Source of the DNA: a virus
Lineage: Duplodnaviria > Heunggongvirae > Uroviricota > Caudoviricetes
IMG/VR virus record: IMGVR_UViG_2690316131_000018
Strand: one strand, 5' to 3'
DNA: 29,394 bases
Shown: positions 13,293-23,899 of the stretch, in pieces
How the letters are laid out: each line of letters starts with the position of its first letter
Numbering within the stretch: position 1 is the stretch's first letter
The notes under the pieces: generated by a model
The model's input: the letters and a program-made list of their open reading frames with translations, nothing else
What the model was told of the DNA's origin: nothing
Databases searched by the model: none
Position numbers and translations under genes: made by a program

Positions 13293-13382
13293 ATCAATGA
13301 CTCCGTACGCAATTAAATTATTACCAATTTAACCACATATGATTTATTTATCGTAGGTAGTTGACATTTACCGCACGAATTA

Positions 13383-13397
13383 TTACCTTCAAGGTAA
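13383..13397. promoter_or_regulatory. operator-like palindrome TTACCTTCAAGGTAA, with a TTGACA hexamer at 13361-13366
   Basis: Perfect TTACC-N5-GGTAA in the intergenic region between the portal operon and the tRNA island. A degenerate copy (TTACCAATTTAACCA, 13321-13335) lies ~62 bp away. Confidence 0.45.
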
Positions 13398-13720: not shown

Positions 13721-13797
13721 GTGGCATTAGCTCAGTCGGACAGAGCAACCGCCTTCTAAGCGGTTGGTCGCAGGTTCGAATCCTGCATGCCACGCCA
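13721..13797 (+). tRNA. tRNA-Arg (anticodon UCU), phage-encoded
   Basis: 77-nt cloverleaf folded by hand: acceptor stem GTGGCAT/ATGCCAC, D-stem GCTC/GAGC, anticodon stem ACCGC/GCGGT with loop CTTCTAA, T-arm GCAGG-TTCGAAT-CCTGC, discriminator G and encoded CCA. D- and T-arms resemble host argU; acceptor and anticodon stems differ. Confidence 0.85.
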
Positions 13798-13884: not shown

Positions 13885-13960
13885 AGCAGGACGCCATTGC
13901 GATGACTTCATGCTGTAAACCCGTACAGCCACGGAAGGCATAACTCATTGCTTCCAGTTC

Positions 13961-13985
13961 GCCCGGTTCGCCGGGCATTTTTTTG
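13961..13985 (+). terminator. second rho-independent terminator-like hairpin
   Basis: GCCCGG-TTCG-CCGGGC followed by ATTTTTTT. Confidence 0.5.
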
Positions 13986-14019
13986 CCTGATGACCGCAAA
14001 CTACCTTAAAGGTATAATC

Positions 14020-14838
14020 ATGAAAAAATTCAAGGTAATTAGCATGTTTGAATCGTTCAAAGAGCTGTTTTTATCTACTGCCAATACTGCCGTGAATCGA
14101 GCCAAAAACCCTGTGCTTGGTGCTTTTGTTATGTCCTGGTGCGCCTTCAACTGGAAATCAATTCTTTATCTATTTTTTAGCAAATCAAACATAATAGATA
14201 AAATTTCATATATCTCAGATAACAGCACATGGAAAACTGTTATGTTTTATCCATGCTTATCTGTAATTGCTATCTGCTGCCTATTACCATGGGTAAACAA
14301 TATCATTAACGTATGGCAAGCAAAGCCTCTTGATAATAATGACTCAATCGAAAATCACCTGAAGGCAAGAAAAATCCAGCGTGAAACAAGACTGCAGAGG
14401 TTATTGGCTAAAAAAGATGTTACATACGACAAAGTTAAGACTGGCGCGGAAAAAGACATCCAAGAGATGAAAGAAGAGATTATTCGATCAAAGAATAGTA
14501 TGGGGGAATTGACTGCCGAGTTGAAAGCTAAAGATGACGAATTGAGATCCGCCAGTGCTCAGTTAGCAGCTCTAAATCATTCATTAAAAGAGATATCGGA
14601 AACTCTTGGAAGAATGAATGAGGCATATAAGACCCTCCAAAATGATTTCGACGAATACAAACTCAAATACCCTGAAAAATCTCAAATAAAAAGCCTTGCA
14701 CTTGGCAACGGCCAAACAATTAGCAACTTTTTGGAGCAACACAACTTATCCGGATTAAAATCTGGTAAGCCAAACGTTTTTAATAACTTTGGTGTTCTAT
14801 CTGGATTATCAGGTTTCGAGGATAAAAATAAAGACTAA
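14020..14838 (+). CDS. AT-rich cargo gene: predicted membrane protein with long C-terminal coiled coil, unknown function
   Basis: The track ORF starts at 13948, but the probable start is the ATG at ~14020 (MKKFKVISMF), just after a TATAAT. Two hydrophobic segments near the N-terminus, then a charged heptad-like region. AT-rich versus the rest of the window. Convergent with the terminase gene, stops overlapping. Confidence 0.6.
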   Translation: MKKFKVISMFESFKELFLSTANTAVNRAKNPVLGAFVMSWCAFNWKSILYLFFSKSNIIDKISYISDNSTWKTVMFYPCLSVIAICCLLPWVNNIINVWQAKPLDNNDSIENHLKARKIQRETRLQRLLAKKDVTYDKVKTGAEKDIQEMKEEIIRSKNSMGELTAELKAKDDELRSASAQLAALNHSLKEISETLGRMNEAYKTLQNDFDEYKLKYPEKSQIKSLALGNGQTISNFLEQHNLSGLKSGKPNVFNNFGVLSGLSGFEDKNKD

Positions 14839-16310
14839 GCATATGGATCGTACTCGGTAAGCGCCTTGCCTTGCTGGTTCTGCTGCCCGGGAAGTCGCAG
14901 GCGCTTTGACACCGGGAAAGCAAACGTCAGCAGTAGCGCATCGCCTTTACCAGGAGAACGCCCAAGACGCTCTTTGATATCTTCCTTCGGTTCGATAACG
15001 ATTTTACCGTCCACACGAACTTTGTACTCTGCCGCCGACAGGTCGTCTGCAGTTTCCTGGTCATCCAGCATGCCGCCCAGCCTCAGCCATGTCTTACATG
15101 AGTTGAACATCTCCCCACGCTTGTTAAGCATCTGCGGGTCAGTGGACGCACCGCCGAACGGAACAAGTTGCCATGTACGCCCCCAGCCATCACCGATTGA
15201 CTTCAAACCGGTTCCGTAACCGAAGTCGATGAACACCGCGTCAGCCTGATACTGGTCTTCAAAGTCAGCGATACGCTTCGCCATAATCAGATCGTCAGTG
15301 GTCTTGTTGCCAGTCCACAGCACCTTACTGTGCAGCCCCTGCCGCAGGTATATCGCAGCGTCATCAACACCGGAGTATGCCGGGTCAACGCCGATTATCA
15401 CCGGAGCATGTACCACCTGCGCAGCGGTTACCACCCGTTTCATTGCCTCATCAGTAAGACCGGTAGGGATAAACTGCAATTCAGATGCATCAGGGAATAT
15501 GCCGCGCACACGGATTTTAACGAAGTCGCTGTCTTCCCCGTAGTCATCAACCCATTTCTGCAACTGCTATTTGTTAGTGCCTTCCACCGTCCGGCTGTCA
15601 ATCTGCGCAGTTTTCCAGCGGTGTTTGTATTTGCGGAAACATTCGCGAAAACGCCCGGTGTTACGTGTAGGGTTTCCGAACGCCACCCAGATAATCTCAG
15701 TGTCTTCGTCCGTAAGAGCACCCTCAGCAACTTCCCACACCAGATCCGCAATGTTCGACGCTTCATCAAATACCACGATGATGCGTTTGCGCTCGTTGTG
15801 TAGTCCGGCGAATGCCTCAGTGTTGTGCTCAGACCAGGGTATTGCGTCAGCCCGCCACCGCTTGTCGTGCCCAGGGTCATTGCTGTACATCGCGGTAGCG
15901 GTACAGGTAAACCAGTCTTTCGTGATGGCAAGGTTCGACCACTTGATAATTTCCGGCCAGGTCTTCGTTCGTAGCTGGTTGTCGGTGTTGGCGGTCACCA
16001 CGACCTTACAATCCTCGCAAGTGGACATGCCCCAGTTGATCAGCATTGAGATGAATGCGGATTTACCAATACCGTGACCAGAAGCGCGTGCCAGCATAAG
16101 CGGCTGATAGCGCGTCTCTGGATTCTGCAGGTGATCACGTATCTCTCGGAACGCATCGGCCTGCCACTGACGTGGACCGGTAGCATGTGCCAGTTCAGTC
16201 CCCTCTTCCCCCCAAGGGAACGCATAGAGGGCATAGCCAAGCGGATCGTGAGTGAACCCTGCAATATCTTCGATTAACTGCTCTTCAGGAGATAACGCTG
16301 CATCTGTCAC
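14835..16310 (-). pseudogene. terminase large subunit interrupted by an in-frame TAG
   Basis: ORF 15567..16310 has Walker A (GHGIGKS) and Walker B (IIVVFDEAS) motifs; ORF 14835..15563 has a nuclease-like Asp-rich region. Both are in one frame, separated only by TAG at 15567-15569 plus one sense codon. The second ORF starts at TTG, not ATG. Confidence 0.7.
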
Positions 16311-17017
16311 TGATTACCATCCTGACGTTCTTTGAGTCGCTTCCTGGCTGCTGCTATGCGATCAGCAATTGTCACATTCACATTAACATCCAGGCGTTCT
16401 TTGAATGCGTTGACGTCGACGTGCTTACCGATGAGCTCGAGGTTTTTCACCTTGTCGGGCCATTTCACCTTCTTCAGGATATGCTCGACATCCTCAACAG
16501 AGAGATCCGCCTCGCCATTCTCTTTTTGCAGGGAAGCCTGGGTTGTCTTGATGGTAGCGATATCCATAGCACTGAGAGAGGTACGCCAGACCTTCGGCCA
16601 TTCAGTGATCGGCTTCATCCCGCCGTCATCGTTCAGTATATCCAGCACGTCCATCTGGTCTATTTCCACCAGGCGCATGAGAACGTAATCAGCACTGACG
16701 CGCATTCGTTTGTTGCGCTCCTCCATCAACTCGGCAATCCGTTTTTGAATGCGTTCATCGCGCATCATGACACTGGCTTTAACTGCCGCTGTATTTGGAG
16801 AGAATCCTGCGTTAATCGCTGCCTGAGTCTGGTTTTCAGGCGTTTTGATGTATGACTGGCAATAAGCCTCCTGCATTGCTGTTAGTGGCTTAAATTGCGT
16901 TGATTTGCGTTTATAGGTTTTAGGTTCAGCAGGCATCATAACCACCCTGGTAATTGTTACCGTCGTGGTAATAGTAACATGCAAAATAAAGCCGCCATAG
17001 TTGGCGGCAGTATTCAA
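16307..17017 (-). CDS. terminase small subunit
   Basis: Motif AYCQSYIKTPENQTQAAINAGFS is typical of phage small terminases. Probable start is the ATG at ~16939 (MMPAEPK); the longer track N-terminus would run through a terminator and operator. Confidence 0.65.
   Translation of the reverse strand: MNTAANYGGFILHVTITTTVTITRVVMMPAEPKTYKRKSTQFKPLTAMQEAYCQSYIKTPENQTQAAINAGFSPNTAAVKASVMMRDERIQKRIAELMEERNKRMRVSADYVLMRLVEIDQMDVLDILNDDGGMKPITEWPKVWRTSLSAMDIATIKTTQASLQKENGEADLSVEDVEHILKKVKWPDKVKNLELIGKHVDVNAFKERLDVNVNVTIADRIAAARKRLKERQDGNQ
16957..16971. promoter_or_regulatory. operator-like palindrome TTACCGTCGTGGTAA just upstream of the terminase genes
   Basis: Perfect TTACC-N5-GGTAA between the terminator (16981-17008) and the small terminase start (~16939). 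Confidence 0.45.
16981..17008 (-). terminator. rho-independent terminator between the nin-like block and the terminase genes
   Basis: GCCGCC-N6-GGCGGC hairpin followed on the - strand by TTTATTTTG. Confidence 0.5.
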
Positions 17018-19693: not shown

Positions 19694-20136
19694 TGGTTGC
19701 CTCCTTTGCGAAGCTCAGCGGCGAAGGCTACTGCGTGATCATGATGTTCAAGTGTGTATGCACACTTGAACATCTCCACGCCCTGCGCCCGTACTTCAGC
19801 TAGGAAAGCATCGGTGGCTGGGGTGTCAACACGGATACTGTCGCGCAAGATGAAAAATGCATTGAGCATCCCAGTCTCCGGCACTTCATCCTGATACTTC
19901 TCATACGCATCAAGAGCCTTCATCATCTCAGGTCCGAATGGTTGAGGGTGCGCAGATTTCAGTCTCGCATTCTCCGCCGCCAGCGCATTAGCACGCACCA
20001 GTTGCACTTCCAGTTGCGTTGCCAAATCGCTGATCAGCTTTGCCACACTGCGCATATCAACGGCACCACATTCTGCTTTCAGTTCCGAAGCCATCTCATG
20101 CCCGGCGGCAACTAACCCTTTGATATTACTTTCCAT
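19690..20136 (-). CDS. Ead/Ea22-like protein (paralog of 18618..19061)
   Basis: 148-aa ORF sharing the ENARLKS coiled-coil motif. Confidence 0.5.
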   Translation of the reverse strand: MESNIKGLVAAGHEMASELKAECGAVDMRSVAKLISDLATQLEVQLVRANALAAENARLKSAHPQPFGPEMMKALDAYEKYQDEVPETGMLNAFFILRDSIRVDTPATDAFLAEVRAQGVEMFKCAYTLEHHDHAVAFAAELRKGGNQ

Positions 20137-20197
20137 CTTTACCCTCGCTTATCCACATAACTTATTGATTACATTGATAACTAAAAAGATCGTCGAT

Positions 20198-20542
20198 TCA
20201 GAACTCTTCGATGTTCCAGCCACCACCTGCTTTCTTTGGTTTAACCGTTACCCCGATGATTCGGAACGGATACTGATCTGCGGCGACTTTGGTTTTCACC
20301 CTGGCGTCGTCGGTCCAGAAACCTTTCACTTCGTGCAGTTCCATCTCTCCGGTGGCGAGCATCACAGCGAAATCGGGCGTATAGAACGTGTTATCAGCTA
20401 ACCGCAGCTTGATACCCTCAAATCGATACCAGACGATTTCTCCTGCACGTTTACGCAGCTCAAGGTGCTGGCAATACGCAGATTCTGTTTTGTTCATCTG
20501 ACCTGTTTTGAGTCGACCAAGAGCCTGTATCTGTTTTCTCAT
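20198..20542 (-). CDS. DUF1064-like phage protein, putative PD-(D/E)xK nuclease
   Basis: 114-aa ORF with ATG start. The YTPDF...E.HEVKG pattern fits a restriction-endonuclease-like fold. Confidence 0.5.
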   Translation of the reverse strand: MRKQIQALGRLKTGQMNKTESAYCQHLELRKRAGEIVWYRFEGIKLRLADNTFYTPDFAVMLATGEMELHEVKGFWTDDARVKTKVAADQYPFRIIGVTVKPKKAGGGWNIEEF

Positions 20543-20545
20543 GAT

Positions 20546-20622
20546 TTACCTCTGAGGTAATTAAAAACCACATAAGACACGAAATCAATAGATTTTAGAA
20601 TATTTTATTACCTAACAGGTAA
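20546..20622 (-). promoter_or_regulatory. repressible promoter for the nin-like block, flanked by two operator palindromes
   Basis: On the - strand: operator TTACCTGTTAGGTAA (20608-20622), then -35 TTGATT (20583-20588), 17-nt spacer, -10 TTTAAT (20560-20565), then operator TTACCTCAGAGGTAA (20546-20560) abutting the -10 and containing the ribosome-binding site for the ATG at 20542. Confidence 0.5.
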
Positions 20623-20659
20623 TTGTCGAGGCGTAAAAAAATGCGCTATCGCGCTGGTA

Positions 20660-21460
20660 TTACTTGATAAATCCTGCCGCCTTTCCTCGCCTGTATTCCT
20701 CCATCAGCCACTGCGCCGGTGTTATTCCACCAAGGGTGGCGGCGTTAGGCATGCACCCGAAACTTCGCCCTGGTGGATGGTAAACGTCTCTCCCTGTGTC
20801 CGGAGGTGTACTCATGGGTTCTGGCTTTGCCTGTATGCTGATCACCGGATCGGGTATCTGCTGTCCGGAAGCCACCTTTTTCGCCCAATCATCGAGCAGC
20901 TTGCGCGCGTGTTTCTCAACCTCAATCTCGCTAAGCTGGCGCTGATACATTGCACGGCGGGTATCACATACGACCCAGTACATAACCGGATGTCGCCACG
21001 GGAATCTTTCGGGACCACCAGGATATAAACTTTTTTCCTTGCTGTACCGGTTAAACTCCGCCATCACATCGTCAATGGTGACGCCAAGAACCATCTTGCT
21101 GTCTTTACACCACTTGATGAATTGCCCAGGCGACGGCCAGAACGGAGATTCACTGGCGCGGGCGTGGCGCATACCAGCAGAAACCTGTTCACGGGTTCGG
21201 ATCCCCCCTTCGGCAAACGCAGCAATCCACTGCTGTTTTGCAGCAACTTCCTGCTCTGGCGTCTTCAGGTTGGTTACCACTGCCGCCGGAAACAGTTGTT
21301 TCAGCTGTTTGAAAAGGGCATCAACAAGCCTCTCTGCTGACATGTTCACCACGTTATCATTGTTGGTGTACTGATGCTCATAACCTGACATGCGAGAAAG
21401 GGCTTCTCCGTCACGGTTTTGTATCGCGGTAAAAACGTTGTTCACAAGAAATCCTCCCAT
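20660..21460 (-). CDS. lambda P-like replication protein (helicase loader)
   Basis: Central region closely resembles lambda P from memory (WIAAFAEGGIRTREQVSAGMRHARASESPFWPSPGQFIKWC; LYPGGPERFPWRHPVMYWVV). Probable start is GTG at ~21445, preceded by GGAGGA and overlapping the O-like stop. Confidence 0.75.
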   Translation of the reverse strand: MGGFLVNNVFTAIQNRDGEALSRMSGYEHQYTNNDNVVNMSAERLVDALFKQLKQLFPAAVVTNLKTPEQEVAAKQQWIAAFAEGGIRTREQVSAGMRHARASESPFWPSPGQFIKWCKDSKMVLGVTIDDVMAEFNRYSKEKSLYPGGPERFPWRHPVMYWVVCDTRRAMYQRQLSEIEVEKHARKLLDDWAKKVASGQQIPDPVISIQAKPEPMSTPPDTGRDVYHPPGRSFGCMPNAATLGGITPAQWLMEEYRRGKAAGFIK

Positions 21461-22257
21461 GCTTCAGGGCTGTTCCTGTGCGGAACGTTGTTATCAGGTA
21501 ATGTTGATTGCTTCTGTCTGCTAATCTGCAGCCTCCTTGCCAGCTTCTGCTCCCACTGTGCCTGATGGTATGCCTTACCCTCAGCCATCCAGTAAATTCT
21601 GAACTCTGCAAGTTCCTGTGCCGTTGGCAGACTGTCCAGGTAGATCCCCTGCAATGAGCTTTTCCGAAGAAAGTCATCTGATGGCTGCCATTGTTCATGC
21701 ATGACAAATTTGCCTAATTGCCCTGGCCCACCAGGAGGAACAAAGTTATTCATCACGGCGTTGTTTGCGCCGGGGTCATGAGGCACAGAATCCCCGCTTT
21801 TTGTCCTGCTCTCCCTCTCTTGGTTAAATGACTGGTTATATGACTGGTTCTGGATCCCGTTTTTGGGATCATTCAACATCCCGTTTTTGGGATCATTCAA
21901 CATCCCGTTTTTGGGTATATTCCCGTTTTCGGTAACATTACCGTTTTCGGGTTCATTGCCCCCCTCCAGGTTGCCTTTAATGTTCCCGTTTTTGGTTATA
22001 TTAAGAGAGAAAACCCGCACTCTTTTTGTCGCTCCCTTTCTCTCTCCGGTATCTGAAATAAGCCCCATTTTCATGAGCGATATAAGCCCGGCCTGCACGG
22101 TTTTTTTATTCAGGCAAGTGTCTTTAACGAGGCGTTCTATGCTGGGGTAGCAGAGGTTATATTCATCGGCTCTGTCAGCCATCGAGAGCAGTATGAGCTT
22201 TAATGATGAGCTACCTGGATCTGTCTCCCAGGCCCAATCTGTTGCATGTCTGCTCAT
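21442..22257 (-). CDS. lambda O-like replication initiator
   Basis: 271-aa ORF with an N-terminal HTH-like region, internal repeats (NGMLNDPKNG) encoded by iterons, and position directly upstream of the P-like gene. ATG at 22257 with GGAG ribosome-binding site. Confidence 0.7.
   Translation of the reverse strand: MSRHATDWAWETDPGSSSLKLILLSMADRADEYNLCYPSIERLVKDTCLNKKTVQAGLISLMKMGLISDTGERKGATKRVRVFSLNITKNGNIKGNLEGGNEPENGNVTENGNIPKNGMLNDPKNGMLNDPKNGIQNQSYNQSFNQERESRTKSGDSVPHDPGANNAVMNNFVPPGGPGQLGKFVMHEQWQPSDDFLRKSSLQGIYLDSLPTAQELAEFRIYWMAEGKAYHQAQWEQKLARRLQISRQKQSTLPDNNVPHRNSPEAWEDFL
21854..22002. repeat. origin-type iterons inside the O-like gene
   Basis: Two tandem 24-bp copies of ATCCCGTTTTTGGGATCATTCAAC followed by degenerate copies. 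Each has an internal inverted repeat (ATCCC...GGGAT) and resembles lambda ori iterons. Confidence 0.65.
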
Positions 22258-22272
22258 GATTAATCTCCGCTA

Positions 22273-22536
22273 TCAGCTTGAGTGTTGTGGGGAGGAATTA
22301 ATCATGATCTGCTTAATCTCTGCCCTGATGCGACGGTTTGATTCCATGGTGCACTCAACACAGTGTCCGTTGTAAACCCAGCGTTCACTGTCATGTCCGT
22401 GCTTACATGGTTTTCCGGTGTAGTAGCGTTTAAGTCCGCGCTTTGCGGCATCAATACGTGTAATGATTTCCATGGTAAGCCCTGTTATTAGTATTGGGAT
22501 TACGGTTATTTTGTGCTGACACAAAAAAAAGATCAA
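22273..22536 (-). CDS. small zinc-finger-like hypothetical protein (cII position)
   Basis: Probable start is the ATG at ~22473 (MEIITRIDAAK...CKHGHDSERWVYNGHCVEC). Located between the Cro-like and O-like genes. Confidence 0.4.
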   Translation of the reverse strand: MIFFLCQHKITVIPILITGLTMEIITRIDAAKRGLKRYYTGKPCKHGHDSERWVYNGHCVECTMESNRRIRAEIKQIMINSSPQHSS

Positions 22537-22553
22537 CCATATTTGGTTTTTTA

Positions 22554-22568
22554 TTACCTTTGAGGTAC
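22554..22568. promoter_or_regulatory. operator-like palindrome TTACCTTTGAGGTAC
   Basis: Imperfect TTACC-N5-GGTAA between the Cro-like gene's terminator hairpin and the next gene. Confidence 0.4.
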
Positions 22569-22583
22569 GAATAGATATGAAAA

Positions 22584-22601
22584 GACCGCCGGATGGCGGT
22601 C
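22584..22601 (-). terminator. possible terminator after the Cro-like gene
   Basis: GACCGCC-GGAT-GGCGGTC hairpin followed on the - strand by TTT. Weak T-tract. Confidence 0.35.
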
Positions 22602-22623
22602 TACAGAGGGTTGTGGCTGGATA

Positions 22624-22854
22624 TCATGAGTAGAAGAAGTATGCCAGTTCTGCTTTTGAGCGCAGCCATTGTCTTGTTTTACAGGCTTTAAAAAGCCCAT
22701 TCATCAATACCTTACCTGGGATTTTGCGCTTACCTGTTAAGTGAGTCTGGATATAGTGACTCGTCGTTCCGGCTTCCTGTGCGAAGGCTTCACGCTCATC
22801 CGGAGTAAGTGCAAGCCAGTGCTTTTTGAAATCGAAATGTCCGTTATCGCTCAT
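22624..22854 (-). CDS. Cro/CII-like HTH regulator, first gene of the rightward-equivalent operon
   Basis: 76-aa ORF with ATG start, divergent from the repressor gene. HTH-like segment EAGTTSHYIQTHLTGKRKIP. Confidence 0.55.
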   Translation of the reverse strand: MSDNGHFDFKKHWLALTPDEREAFAQEAGTTSHYIQTHLTGKRKIPGKVLMNGLFKACKTRQWLRSKAELAYFFYS

Positions 22855-22890
22855 AGCTATTGCCTGATATTTATTTCAGATAATAAATAT

Positions 22891-22953
22891 TCACCCATAA
22901 GGTAACAAAAATCAAGGATAGTTACCTGTGGGGTGCATTTACCTGTTGGGTAA
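22891..22953. promoter_or_regulatory. tripartite operator region between the Cro-like and repressor genes
   Basis: Three TTACC-N5-GGTAA-type sites: TCACCCATAAGGTAA (22891-22905), TTACCTGTGGGGTGC (22922-22936) and the perfect TTACCTGTTGGGTAA (22939-22953). Confidence 0.6.
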
Positions 22954-23008
22954 TATTGCTTTAAATTGAATCATCTACTGATTCATATATGAGGCGATTT
23001 TCCAGAAA

Positions 23009-23593
23009 ATGAAAAGTATCCAGGACGTCCGCAGGCAAAATCTCAACGACTTGATCGACCGTGAATTCAATGGTGTTCAGACGCGGATGGCAGAAAAACT
23101 TGGAACTCAGGCAAATCTGGTAAACCGCTGGGCTCTTGGCAAGAAGGTTATCGGCGACCAGGTTGCGCGAAAAATCGAAGCTGCCGCCAATAAACCCCGT
23201 AACTGGCTTGATATCGATCGCTCGCTTTCTCAGGAAGGTTTTCAGCCTGTCGGACCAAGCGACATTGGTCAACTGGCGGCTCACAACCTGGAACGCTGGA
23301 TGAGCGAAAGCCGCGACCTTTCAACACAGGGAAAACTTCACCGCGCATCTGGCGTCTCCCAGGTGACAATCAGCCGCCTGTTAAACAATGAGGTCAGCGT
23401 TTCCATTTCCACCCTGGAGAATGTTGCATCCGCATTCGGGCGTCACGGCTATGAATTACTGATTCACCCGCACGACCCTGCGACCATCAACTATGACCGC
23501 TCGCGCTACGCATTGTTACCCGAAACCGAGAAAGCAAAGATCGAAAGTTACATTGAATTTGTCATCAACCAGAACGAAAAAAACAAACAATAA
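23009..23593 (+). CDS. prophage repressor-like HTH protein, no obvious autocleavage domain
   Basis: 194-aa ORF with ATG start, divergent from the Cro-like gene. Two HTH-like segments (QTRMAEKLGTQANLVNRWA and ASGVSQVTISRLL). I see no Ser/Lys peptidase motifs. Confidence 0.6.
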   Translation: MKSIQDVRRQNLNDLIDREFNGVQTRMAEKLGTQANLVNRWALGKKVIGDQVARKIEAAANKPRNWLDIDRSLSQEGFQPVGPSDIGQLAAHNLERWMSESRDLSTQGKLHRASGVSQVTISRLLNNEVSVSISTLENVASAFGRHGYELLIHPHDPATINYDRSRYALLPETEKAKIESYIEFVINQNEKNKQ

Positions 23594-23613
23594 AATCATA
23601 TTTTTCAGTAAGT

Positions 23614-23640
23614 AAGCCGCCTTCTGGCGGCTTTTTTATT
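23614..23640 (+). terminator. rho-independent terminator after the repressor gene
   Basis: AAGCCGCC-TTCT-GGCGGCTT followed by TTTTATT. Confidence 0.6.
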
Positions 23641-23650
23641 GCCTGTTTGA

Positions 23651-23727
23651 TTACCTAAAGGGTAATTTTTTTAACTCATATCTATTGACACCAAACCAAA
23701 TACGCATAATCATTACCTCAACGGTAA
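23651..23727 (+). promoter_or_regulatory. pL-like early-left promoter with two flanking operator palindromes
   Basis: TTACCTAAAGGGTAA (23651-23665), TTGACA (23685-23690), CATAAT-like -10, then TTACCTCAACGGTAA (23713-23727). Operator centres are ~62 bp apart, as at the nin promoter. Confidence 0.5.
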
Positions 23728-23746
23728 CAAGCCGAGGTAACAAATT

Positions 23747-23899
23747 ATGCAGTGGAAAATCATCAACGGTTGGTACTGCGTTACTGCATGCGGATTCATG
23801 AGCTGGAAGTTCCGCACCTTACAGGAAGGCATTAAGTGGGCTTTCGTCAGCAAAGAAGCTCGCGATGTAGCCAACGATAACGAGATATGGGAGGGCTGA
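23747..23899 (+). CDS. possible small protein (50 aa), first ORF of the early-left operon
   Basis: ATG preceded by GAGGTAA at good spacing. My translation: MQWKIINGWYCVTACGFMSWKFRTLQEGIKWAFVSKEARDVANDNEIWEG. Too short for the ORF track. Confidence 0.3.
   Translation: MQWKIINGWYCVTACGFMSWKFRTLQEGIKWAFVSKEARDVANDNEIWEG

What the first reader, a model, noticed from the sequence alone, without database searches (positions are those of the whole stretch)
20546..20622. Repressible promoter after the P-like gene with the same two-operator geometry as the pL-like promoter
A weak hairpin plus T-tract after the P-like stop is followed by -35 TTGATT and -10 TTTAAT with a 17-nt spacer. One palindrome sits ~19 bp upstream of the -35 and one abuts the -10. 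The pL-like promoter (23651-23727) has the same layout, with operator centres ~62 bp apart in both. This suggests the nin-like block is an independent, repressor-controlled unit, unlike lambda, and the spacing hints at cooperative binding.
Basis: partly seen in the sequence, partly recalled or inferred. Interest (0 to 1): 0.6.

Follow-up and report, generated by a model that had tools for sequence, protein, structure and literature searches.

The report
Repressor-gated promoter cassette after replication genes
In this phiV10/epsilon15-type prophage of E. coli, the gap between the replication gene and the next gene block holds a conserved cassette (weak terminator, promoter-like hexamers, two binding sites for the phage repressor exactly 62 bp apart), a known design already partly annotated in phage epsilon15.

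Summary
The window is a phiV10/epsilon15-like (Uetakevirus) prophage. The palindrome TTACC-N5-GGTAA occurs 10 times with at most 1 mismatch (0.47 expected). It lies in the cro/repressor intergenic region, at the pL-like promoter and after the P-like gene. The last two pairs have centres exactly 62 bp apart and the same register for -35, -10 and both sites.

An anchor that ignores the operators recovered 106 distinct copies of the post-replication cassette. The distal site is exact in 106/106, the proximal in 104/106, and there are no indels between them, although the flanking genes differ. The repressor is 42% identical to the SPC32H Rep, a tetramer.

The best reading is a Rep-gated internal promoter for the nin-like block, clamped by operators at about -62 and +1. 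Two caveats apply. In this lineage the proposed -10 (TTTAAT) lacks the key A at -11. A second candidate promoter (TCGACA-16-TAAAAT) overlaps the distal operator. No start site has been mapped.

The epsilon15 GenBank record already marks the orthologous distal site as a repressor site. I rate it a new member of a known kind, of moderate-low interest.

The parts
20660..21460 (-). Replication protein P-like gene, the last gene of the cro-side replication unit
   Evidence: Pfam PF06992 Phage_lambda_P, E 1.5e-56. Annotated 'putative replication protein p' in phiV10.
20635..20654 (-). Weak hairpin GCGC-GATA-GCGC (20654-20643), then A and T7 (20641-20635): a putative leaky intrinsic terminator at the 5' edge of the cassette
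   Evidence: Sequence. Fold centroid -7.4 kcal/mol, z -0.96. The left stem is GCGC in 105/106 distinct cassettes while the loop varies among 9 variants (the right stem and the T-tract were part of the search anchor). Annotated as a putative rho-independent terminator in phiV10. Not listed by the terminator scan, which needs at least 5 pairs.
20608..20622 (.). Distal Rep operator TTACCTGTTAGGTAA, centre 20615, about -62 from the predicted start
   Evidence: Exact motif match. Half-sites are exact in 106/106 cassettes found with an operator-independent anchor, while the central 5 nt has 36 variants and 1.46 bits of entropy. The orthologous site in epsilon15 is annotated 'protein_bind repressor'.
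20602..20629 (-). Alternative promoter candidate: TCGACA (20629-20624), 16-nt spacer, TAAAAT (20607-20602). The distal operator fills the spacer.
   Evidence: Best promoter-scan hit in this intergenic region, 10/12. The TAAAAT/CAAAAT hexamer is common in relatives but the -35 is not conserved. The pair passes the criteria in 28/61 phiV10-type copies and 8/45 other copies.
20583..20588 (-). -35-like hexamer TTGATT, inside the conserved word CTATTGA
   Evidence: Sequence. Same offset from the distal operator as TTGACA at pL. CTATTGA is invariant (6 of 7 columns; the leading C >=90%) in the non-anchored, de-replicated set.
20560..20565 (-). -10-like hexamer TTTAAT, 17-nt spacer. It lacks A at -11.
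   Evidence: Sequence. Not accepted by the promoter scan. In epsilon15 the equivalent TTGAAA-18-TAAATT passes. 40/45 non-phiV10-type copies have A at position 2 and T at position 6 in the 18-nt register; 0/61 phiV10-type copies do.
20546..20560 (.). Proximal Rep operator TTACCTCAGAGGTAA, centre 20553 (the predicted +1). It contains the Shine-Dalgarno GAGG (20552-20549) of the next gene.
   Evidence: Exact motif match. Exact in 104/106 cassettes and 1 mismatch in the other 2. The central 5 nt is restricted to purine-rich words.
20198..20542 (-). First gene of the nin-like block, a DUF1064 protein
   Evidence: Pfam PF06356, E 2.9e-07. In relatives the same cassette precedes a RuvC-like resolvase gene or other genes.
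23614..23727 (+). pL-like cassette with the same geometry: terminator 23614-23633, distal operator 23651-23665, -35 TTGACA 23685-23690, -10 AATCAT 23708-23713, proximal operator 23713-23727
   Evidence: promoter 10/12; terminator with 8 pairs.
23009..23593 (+). Repressor (Rep) gene, whose product is the predicted ligand of the operators
   Evidence: Matches PDB 5D50 and 5D4Z (SPC32H repressor), E 4e-42. 42% identity, with the NLVNRW segment in the N-terminal (DNA-binding) part of the protein conserved. Pfam HTH_3.
22891..22953 (.). Operator cluster between the cro-like gene (22854-22624, minus strand) and the Rep gene: 22891-22905 (1 mismatch), 22922-22936 (2 mismatches), 22939-22953 (exact)
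   Evidence: On the minus strand, TTGATT-17-GAATAT has the first of these operators in its spacer.

Best explanation
The 120-bp gap after the P-like gene is a self-contained regulatory cassette. It makes the nin-like block a transcription unit that the prophage repressor gates directly.

Order of parts (minus strand): a short GC hairpin plus U7 that ends or attenuates the cro-side transcript; a distal Rep operator at about -62; promoter hexamers built on CTATTGA; and a proximal Rep operator centred on the predicted start (20553), which also carries the ribosome-binding site of the first gene.

In a lysogen, Rep occupies both operators. The proximal one blocks RNA polymerase. The distal one, six helical turns away on the same face of the DNA, raises occupancy through cooperative binding, most simply by one Rep tetramer bridging both sites across a 62-bp loop. 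When Rep is inactivated, the unit fires on its own, in addition to any read-through.

Shown: the sites, their identity with the operators at the cro/Rep region and at pL, their exact geometry, their strict conservation, and Rep homology. Inferred: Rep binding here, looping, promoter activity, terminator activity, and which of the two candidate promoters is used in this lineage.
For: 1. The motif TTACC-N5-GGTAA is enriched about 20-fold (10 sites against 0.47 expected). It lies in the cro/Rep intergenic region, at pL and here.

2. The register is the same as at pL. In both, the distal operator end is 19 nt from the -35, the spacer is 17 nt, the last T of the -10 is the first T of the operator, and the centres are 62 bp apart.

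3. A viral-contig scan allowing gaps of 30-60 nt between exact sites gave centre spacings of 62 bp (116 times) and 63 bp (19 times). Every other value from 45 to 75 bp occurred at most 3 times. The 47-nt inter-operator segments fall into 6 single-linkage clusters at 70% identity, about five once a reverse-complement duplicate is discounted, and pairwise identity goes down to 23%.

4. An anchor that ignores the operators (GCGCATTTTTTTAC-N41-CTATTGA) found 118 cassettes, 106 of them distinct. All have the same internal length. Half-site entropy is 0 bits for both distal half-sites and the left proximal half-site, and 0.03 bits for the right proximal one. The distal central 5 nt has 1.46 bits and the 10 nt upstream of the distal operator has 1.03 bits.

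5. The cassette is a mobile junction. Upstream is a P-like or a DnaT-like replication gene. Downstream is DUF1064, a RuvC-like resolvase gene or another gene. It occurs in prophages of Citrobacter, Scandinavium, Erwinia and Superficieibacter.

6. In epsilon15 the equivalent hexamers TTGAAA-18-TAAATT pass the promoter scan. 40/45 non-phiV10-type copies have a TAnnnT -10.

7. Rep is a homologue of the SPC32H Rep. That protein binds palindromic sites as a tetramer and has a p53-like tetramerisation domain of a fold its describers link to DNA looping. Its two pairs of middle dimerisation domains lie about 100 Å apart (PMC9638917; PMC9986798).

8. The epsilon15 record marks the orthologous distal site as a repressor-binding site.
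Against: - In the window and in all 61 phiV10-type copies, the -10 has no A at -11 in either the 17-nt or the 18-nt register. The hexamers match 8/12 and are not called by the scan.
- A different promoter (TCGACA-16-TAAAAT) scores better here.
- The hairpin has only 4 base pairs and is no more stable than shuffled sequence, so the nin-like genes may be expressed largely by read-through.
- No transcription start, footprint or reporter data for this site were found in the papers I could reach. The two primary SPC32H papers and the epsilon15 genome paper are not held.
- Many of the compared sequences are close relatives, so the counts overstate the number of independent events.
Confidence: 0.62

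Rival explanations
1. In this lineage the active promoter is the one that overlaps the distal operator: TCGACA at 20629-20624, a 16-nt spacer, TAAAAT at 20607-20602, with a start near 20595. Rep at the distal site then occludes RNA polymerase directly. The proximal site, at about +40, acts as a roadblock and a cooperative partner. The TTGATT/TTTAAT pair would be a decayed copy of the promoter that epsilon15-type phages use. This variant does not conflict with 'repressible promoter'.
For: It scores 10/12 and is the only minus-strand promoter hit in this intergenic region. The main -10 lacks A at -11 in all 61 phiV10-type copies, while the alternative passes the criteria in 28 of those 61 against 8 of 45 other copies. 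The cro-side promoter also carries an operator inside its spacer.
Against: Its -35 position is not conserved: about 12 different hexamers occur in phiV10-type copies and it is unrecognisable in epsilon15-type copies. The words conserved across lineages are CTATTGA and the AT-rich -10 region next to the proximal operator.
Confidence: 0.22
2. There is no promoter. The operator pair is a repressor-dependent roadblock or insulator behind a leaky terminator. It keeps stray or read-through transcription from the cro side out of the nuclease-encoding nin-like block in lysogens. During lytic growth the block is expressed only by read-through.
For: The hexamers are poor in this window (8/12, no A at -11). 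The hairpin is weak, so read-through is likely. The proximal site sits directly on the ribosome-binding site. Repressor sites that stop elongation are known in mycobacteriophage L5 (my own knowledge).
Against: A roadblock needs neither an invariant CTATTGA at the exact pL -35 offset nor a -10-like hexamer in the exact pL register. Most non-phiV10 copies have scan-passing or TAnnnT promoters. The cro-side promoter is itself repressed in a lysogen, so a roadblock alone would be largely redundant.
Confidence: 0.13
3. The resemblance to pL is a neutral relic of a duplicated pL segment, or a chance match, without a present function.
For: The two cassettes share words (GCCT before the distal site, ATCTATTGA), which is consistent with duplication.
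Against: There are no half-site substitutions in 106 distinct distal sites and only 2 in the proximal sites, while the central and flanking bases vary freely. There are no indels inside the pair, although indels occur just after it. The cassette persists across host genera and with different neighbouring genes.
Confidence: 0.03

Closest known systems
Repressor-binding sites annotated in Salmonella phage epsilon15 (NC_004775.2; genome paper Kropinski et al. 2007, not readable here)
   Same: Same motif (ATTACC-N5-GGTAAT). Site 35906-35922 lies after the replication gene and before the first nin-like gene, and is the orthologue of the window's distal operator. Sites before the small terminase gene, before gp3 and at pL are also annotated, and they match the window's extra sites.
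   Different: The epsilon15 record does not mark the proximal operator (35969-35983), any promoter, or the 62-bp pairing. Its downstream gene is a RuvC-like resolvase rather than DUF1064, and its -10 (TAAATT) is canonical whereas the window's is not.
Rep-Ant switch of Salmonella phage SPC32H (PDB 5D50, 5D4Z; Kim & Ryu 2013; Kim et al. 2016)
   Same: The window's Rep is a full-length homologue (E 4e-42, 42% identity). SPC32H has the same operator layout, including a 62-bp pair after its replication gene at 35972 and 36034. Rep binds palindromic sites as a tetramer (PMC9638917).
   Different: I could not read the primary papers, so I do not know whether they describe this pair. No antirepressor gene or LexA box was found inside this window. 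A later paper states that Rep's structural mechanism of repression 'has not been extensively characterized' (PMC9986798).
Lambda immunity region with tR2 and the nin region
   Same: Gene order is similar (repressor, cro-like, replication, nin-like), and a terminator sits between the replication and nin-like genes.
   Different: From my own knowledge, lambda has operators only at OL and OR, and it passes tR2 by N-dependent antitermination with no promoter there. Here the junction carries two operators and promoter hexamers, and no N/nut system was identified (not tested).
Looping or cooperative repressors whose operators are an integral number of helical turns apart (lambda CI at 5-6 turns, LacI O1-O3, GalR, Rco of pLS20 with a 75-bp loop)
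   Same: There are two operators, one over the promoter and one upstream. The spacing of 62-63 bp is about 6 turns. The repressor is a tetramer with the same tetramerisation fold as Rco (PMC9986798).
   Different: Looping by Rep has not been shown. A 62-bp loop is short. At the cro/Rep region and before the terminase gene, the same operators lie only 16-18 bp apart.
Multi-site prophage repressors (P1 C1 operators; mycobacteriophage L5 gp71 'stoperators')
   Same: One repressor has sites at many transcription-unit boundaries. Here these are pL, the cro/Rep region, after cro, after P, before the terminase gene and before gp3.
   Different: From my own knowledge, L5 sites are asymmetric and orientation-dependent and lie within transcribed regions, and P1 operators are mostly single. 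Here the sites are symmetric, paired and in fixed register with promoter hexamers.

Membership tests
Operator of the epsilon15/SPC32H-type Rep repressor | Palindrome with half-sites TTACC/GGTAA separated by 5 nt | tested here: met
   Both sites are exact. Half-sites are invariant in 106 distinct orthologous cassettes.
Operator of the epsilon15/SPC32H-type Rep repressor | The same motif occupies the divergent promoter region next to a cognate repressor gene | tested here: met
   Sites at 22891, 22922 and 22939 lie between the cro-like and Rep genes. Rep is a homologue of PDB 5D50.
Operator of the epsilon15/SPC32H-type Rep repressor | Physical binding by Rep | not testable with these tools
   This needs EMSA or footprinting. 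The only support is the curator's annotation in epsilon15.
Sigma-70 promoter | -35 and -10 hexamers with a 16-18 nt spacer, including A at -11 and T at -7 | tested here: inconclusive
   TTGATT-17-TTTAAT matches 8/12, has T at -11, and is not listed by the scan. An overlapping alternative scores 10/12. Orthologues in epsilon15-type phages pass.
Sigma-70 promoter | A primary transcript 5' end downstream of the -10 | not testable with these tools
   No start-site data were found.
Intrinsic (rho-independent) terminator | Stable GC-rich hairpin directly followed by a U-tract | tested here: inconclusive
   The U7 tract is perfect and the left stem GCGC is conserved in 105/106 while the loop varies (the right stem and the T-tract were part of the search anchor). 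The stem is only 4 bp, z is -0.96, and it is below the threshold of the scan.
Cooperative or looping operator pair | Spacing fixed at an integral number of helical turns | tested here: met
   62 bp (116 times) or 63 bp (19 times), with almost nothing else between 45 and 75 bp. No indels in 118 cassettes. About five distinct sequence classes.
Cooperative or looping operator pair | A repressor oligomer with two DNA-binding units | not tested
   Taken from the literature on the SPC32H homologue. The aromatic residues at the tetramer interface, F187 and F190, align with Y and F in the window's Rep.
Lambda-type tR2/nin control (N antitermination) | N protein and nut sites, with no promoter or operator at the junction | tested here: not met
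   Operators and promoter hexamers are present at the junction. N and nut were not searched for.
L5-type stoperator | Asymmetric site that is orientation-dependent, single and independent of a promoter | tested here: not met
   The sites are symmetric, paired and in register with the hexamers.

The most novel reading that the evidence does not exclude
Uetakevirus repressors may hold lysogeny by clamping each early promoter between two operators exactly six helical turns apart (about -62 and +1), with one 'trans-mode' Rep tetramer closing a 62-bp micro-loop around the promoter. The same protein would directly gate at least five transcription units, including the packaging and head genes. That would be genome-wide direct repression rather than a lambda-type cascade. 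As a by-product, read-through RNA can pair the two identical palindromes and bury the ribosome-binding site, so only promoter-initiated RNA would be well translated.
Probability: 0.35. Interest if true: 0.55.

Novelty: new member of a known kind. Interest (0 to 1): 0.33.

Why it matters
The cassette shows that this common E. coli prophage type is built from separately gated transcription units. The type is present in 562 of 5426 complete E. coli genomes. Each unit is bounded by a terminator and carries the same repressor sites.

The strictly conserved 62-bp operator pair gives a natural DNA substrate for testing how the structurally solved but mechanistically unclear Rep tetramer represses. 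It also gives a compact terminator-operator-promoter-operator-RBS part that could be reused in engineered phiV10 reporter phages. It does not change the general picture of phage repression.

Tried and rejected
- **Literature.** The epsilon15 genome paper (PMC2698709) and the two SPC32H papers (PMC3807360, PMC4983836) are not held. Full-text searches for phiV10, epsilon15, SPC32H, Uetakevirus and the motif words gave no description of these operators or of start sites. The ZX5 paper only predicts four promoters and speculates about PL.
- **Heteroimmune relative as a natural covariation test.** ZX5 looked partly different (64% coverage), but it encodes a Rep that differs from the window's at a single residue and the same operators. 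No relative with another specificity was found.
- **LexA box or antirepressor in the window.** None was found with TACTGT-N8-ACAGTA at up to 2 mismatches. The antirepressor gene probably lies outside the window, as in ZX5.
- **Known RNA family in the gap.** There is none. The only Rfam hit in the window is a tRNA.
- **A strong terminator.** Rejected. The hairpin has 4 bp and z is -0.96.
- **A canonical promoter in the divergent locus L100.** TTGAAA-17-CAGTAT has A at -11 and T at -7 and the same operator register, but only 3/6 in the -10, so the scan does not call it.
- **A leftward promoter at the pre-gp3 site.** A conserved TTGACA lies on the opposite strand, but the spacing to the operator gives only an 11-nt spacer, so I dropped it.

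Full report
**What the window is.** The region 20100-23800 is 98% identical to Escherichia phages phiV10, PAS61 and phiv142-3, and more distantly related to Enterobacter and Salmonella epsilon15-like phages. It occurs in 562 of 5426 complete E. coli genomes, almost always on the chromosome. The window is therefore a Uetakevirus (phiV10/epsilon15-type) prophage. The relevant genes and their Pfam or PDB matches are:
- repressor (Rep), 23009-23593, plus strand;
- cro-like gene, 22854-22624, minus strand;
- a small gene;
- DnaT-like gene, 22257-21442, minus strand;
- P-like gene, 21460-20660, minus strand (PF06992, E 1.5e-56);
- a 117-bp gap;
- DUF1064 gene, 20542-20198, minus strand, followed by Eae/Ead-type genes.

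**Checking the observation.** Reading the minus strand gives, in order:
- stop codon of the P-like gene, 20662-20660;
- GCGC-GATA-GCGC, 20654-20643, then A and T7, 20641-20635;
- TTACCTGTTAGGTAA, 20622-20608;
- 19 nt, then TTGATT, 20588-20583;
- 17 nt, then TTTAAT, 20565-20560;
- TTACCTCAGAGGTAA, 20560-20546, which holds the Shine-Dalgarno GAGG;
- ATG at 20542.

The operator centres are 62 bp apart. The pL-like region has a strong terminator (23614-23633), an operator at 23651-23665, 19 nt, TTGACA, 17 nt, AATCAT, and an operator at 23713-23727. Its centres are also 62 bp apart.

The motif is not a chance pattern. TTACC-N5-GGTAA with at most 1 mismatch occurs 10 times against 0.47 expected, and 0 of 100 shuffles reach that number.

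**Whose sites are they?** The same motif forms a cluster of three sites between the cro-like and Rep genes (22891, 22922 with 2 mismatches, 22939). One of them lies in the spacer of the cro-side promoter TTGATT-17-GAATAT. Rep matches the crystallised repressor of Salmonella phage SPC32H (PDB 5D50 and 5D4Z, E 4e-42, 42% identity, with the NLVNRW segment in the N-terminal (DNA-binding) part of the protein conserved). SPC32H and epsilon15 use the same half-sites in the same layout: three at the cro/Rep region, two or three at pL, and two after the replication gene, 62 bp apart. The palindromes are therefore operators of the prophage repressor. This is an inference from position and conservation. 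Binding was not tested.

**Conservation.** Two scans of the IMG/VR viral contigs were run.

The first asked for two exact operators separated by any gap of 30-60 nt.
- Among successive exact sites in the fetched loci, spacings were 62 bp (116 times) and 63 bp (19 times). Every other value between 45 and 75 bp occurred at most 3 times.
- About half of the 62-bp pairs are pL-type and half are of the post-replication type.
- The 47-nt stretches between the operators fall into 6 single-linkage clusters at 70% identity, about five once a reverse-complement duplicate is discounted, and pairwise identity goes as low as 23%. The spacing is therefore conserved even where the sequence between the sites is not.

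The first scan selects for exact operators by construction, so a second scan used an anchor that ignores them: GCGCATTTTTTTAC, a 26-56 nt gap, then CTATTGA.
- All 118 cassettes had the same 41-nt gap.
- Among the 106 distinct sequences the distal operator is exact in 106 and the proximal in 104, with 1 mismatch in the other 2.
- Column entropy is 0 bits for both distal half-sites and the left proximal half-site, and 0.03 bits for the right proximal one. It is 1.46 bits in the distal central 5 nt (36 variants) and 1.03 bits in the 10 nt before the distal site.
- The proximal central 5 nt is limited to purine-rich words, as expected for a ribosome-binding site.
- Length changes occur just after the proximal operator (ATCATG, AAAATCATG, ACGTCATG and others) but never inside the pair.
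- The hairpin's left stem is GCGC in 105/106 while its loop has 9 variants.
- In a de-replicated set that was not anchored on it (7 representatives below 80% identity), CTATTGA and most of the -10 region remain invariant.

The cassette is a junction between modules.
- Upstream is a P-like gene in the window, and a DnaT-like or other replication gene in epsilon15 and SPC32H.
- Downstream is DUF1064 in the window and SPC32H, a RuvC-like resolvase gene in epsilon15, or something else.
- Exact copies occur in prophages of Citrobacter braakii, C. werkmanii, Scandinavium, Ca. Erwinia dacicola and Superficieibacter.

**Is there a promoter?** This is the weakest step.

In favour:
- The -35 word and the -10 hexamer sit in exactly the register of pL. 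pL follows a strong terminator and scores 10/12.
- The epsilon15 version, TTGAAA-18-TAAATT, passes the promoter scan.
- 40 of 45 non-phiV10-type cassettes have a TAnnnT hexamer with an 18-nt spacer.
- A divergent phage (L100) has the same operator geometry around TTGAAA-17-CAGTAT, just before a RuvC-like gene. That -10 is only 3/6 and is not called by the scan.

Against:
- In the window and in all 61 phiV10-type cassettes the -10 region reads TTTTTAATT, which gives no A at -11 in any usable register.
- The scan instead lists TCGACA-16-TAAAAT (20629-20602), whose spacer is the distal operator. Its -35 is poorly conserved. The pair passes the criteria in 28/61 phiV10-type and 8/45 other cassettes.

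Either candidate is bracketed by Rep operators, so the phrase 'repressible promoter' survives. The exact start (about 20553 or about 20595) and the promoter's strength in this lineage remain open.

**Terminator and independence.** The hairpin has four G-C pairs (centroid -7.4 kcal/mol, z -0.96). The phiV10 annotators called it a putative terminator. Its left stem is conserved while its loop varies (the right stem and the U7 tract were fixed by the search anchor), which argues for a real RNA hairpin. It is probably leaky. The nin-like block may therefore get both read-through and its own initiation. I cannot tell the proportions.

**Mechanism proposed.** The proximal operator is centred on the predicted +1 and shares a base with the -10. 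The distal operator is centred at about -62, upstream of the core promoter. A spacing of 62-63 bp is about six helical turns, so both sites face the same side of the DNA.

According to secondary sources, the SPC32H Rep binds palindromic sites as a tetramer, each DNA-binding pair drawing its two domains from different dimers (PMC9638917). It has a p53-like tetramerisation domain of a fold its describers (PMC9986798) link to DNA looping, and its two pairs of middle dimerisation domains are about 100 Å apart (PMC9986798). Sixty-two base pairs of straight DNA span about 210 Å, so one tetramer could hold both sites only if the promoter DNA is bent into a small loop. This is inference. PMC9986798 itself states that the structural mechanism of repression by Rep 'has not been extensively characterized'.

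The interface residues F187 and F190 of SPC32H Rep align with Y and F in the window's Rep.

**Comparison with what is known.** The epsilon15 RefSeq record already carries 'protein_bind: repressor, lysogeny' features at six places:
- before the small terminase gene (12-27);
- before gp3 (2931-2947);
- three at pL;
- one at 35906-35922.

The last is the orthologue of the window's distal operator. That record does not mark the proximal operator, any promoter, or the pairing.

Lambda differs. From my own knowledge, it has operators only at OL and OR and passes tR2 by N antitermination. Multi-unit control by one repressor is known from P1 (C1) and from L5 (gp71). Paired operators at integral helical turns are known from lambda CI, LacI, GalR and Rco. 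The finding is therefore a correct and well-supported reading of a regulatory cassette of a known kind, in a phage family where one of its two sites was already annotated.

**Verdict.** Novelty: a new member of a known kind. Interest: about 0.33.

Noticed in passing
window 14835-16310 (minus strand), codon at 15567-15569: The large terminase gene carries an in-frame amber codon (TAG where phiV10 has CAG, codon 248) in an otherwise 98% identical protein. This prophage copy is probably unable to package DNA unless the codon is suppressed.
   Followed up: partly
window 16939-17012 (minus strand): After the last early gene comes a terminator (GCCGCCAACTATGGCGGC plus a T-tract). It is followed by two Rep operators 18 bp apart (16971-16957 exact, 16953-16939 with 1 mismatch). 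The second overlaps the start codon of the small terminase gene (ATG 16937). A -10-like TACTAT abuts the first operator in the same register as at pL. The late genes may therefore be repressed directly by Rep. epsilon15 annotates the equivalent site (12-27).
   Followed up: partly
window 13321-13397 (minus strand): An exact operator (13397-13383) lies upstream of the small gene before the portal gene. Exactly 62 bp downstream lies a lone GGTAA half-site, preceded by TATGTGGTTAAATT. These are the same words as in the -10 region of the post-P cassette. The 55-nt block around it is almost identical in epsilon15, SPC32H and phiV10, which suggests another conserved promoter or control element.
   Followed up: partly
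window 22494-22602 (minus strand): After the cro-like gene there is a good terminator (22602-22583), a 1-mismatch operator (22568-22554) and TTGATC-17-CAAAAT. In epsilon15 and SPC32H the CAAAAT abuts a TTACC half-site in the pL register. This looks like a degenerate fourth copy of the same cassette, in front of the replication genes.
   Followed up: partly
window 13721-13797 (plus strand): A tRNA-Arg (anticodon TCT) gene lies on the strand opposite to the late genes, as in SPC32H.
   Followed up: yes
window 13948-14838 (plus strand): A 296-aa ORF with an N-terminal hydrophobic part and a long coiled-coil-like part sits where phiV10 has the unrelated gp03. It gives only weak coiled-coil-type hits to defence-system models (DndD and LmuB, E about 1e-5 to 1e-4). 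It is possibly a moron of unknown function.
   Followed up: partly
window 20535-20665 (minus strand, as RNA): In read-through RNA the two identical palindromes can pair with each other (MFE -28 kcal/mol, z -2.2) and bury the ribosome-binding site of the DUF1064 gene. RNA starting at the predicted +1 (20553) is unstructured. This may be only a by-product of having two identical palindromes.
   Followed up: partly
loci fetched by the viral-contig scan; window 22922-22953 and 16939-16971: Besides 62-63 bp, the only other recurrent spacing of exact operators is 17-18 bp (30 cases). It is found at the cro/Rep region and before the terminase gene. Rep operators thus occur in two discrete geometries.
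   Followed up: no
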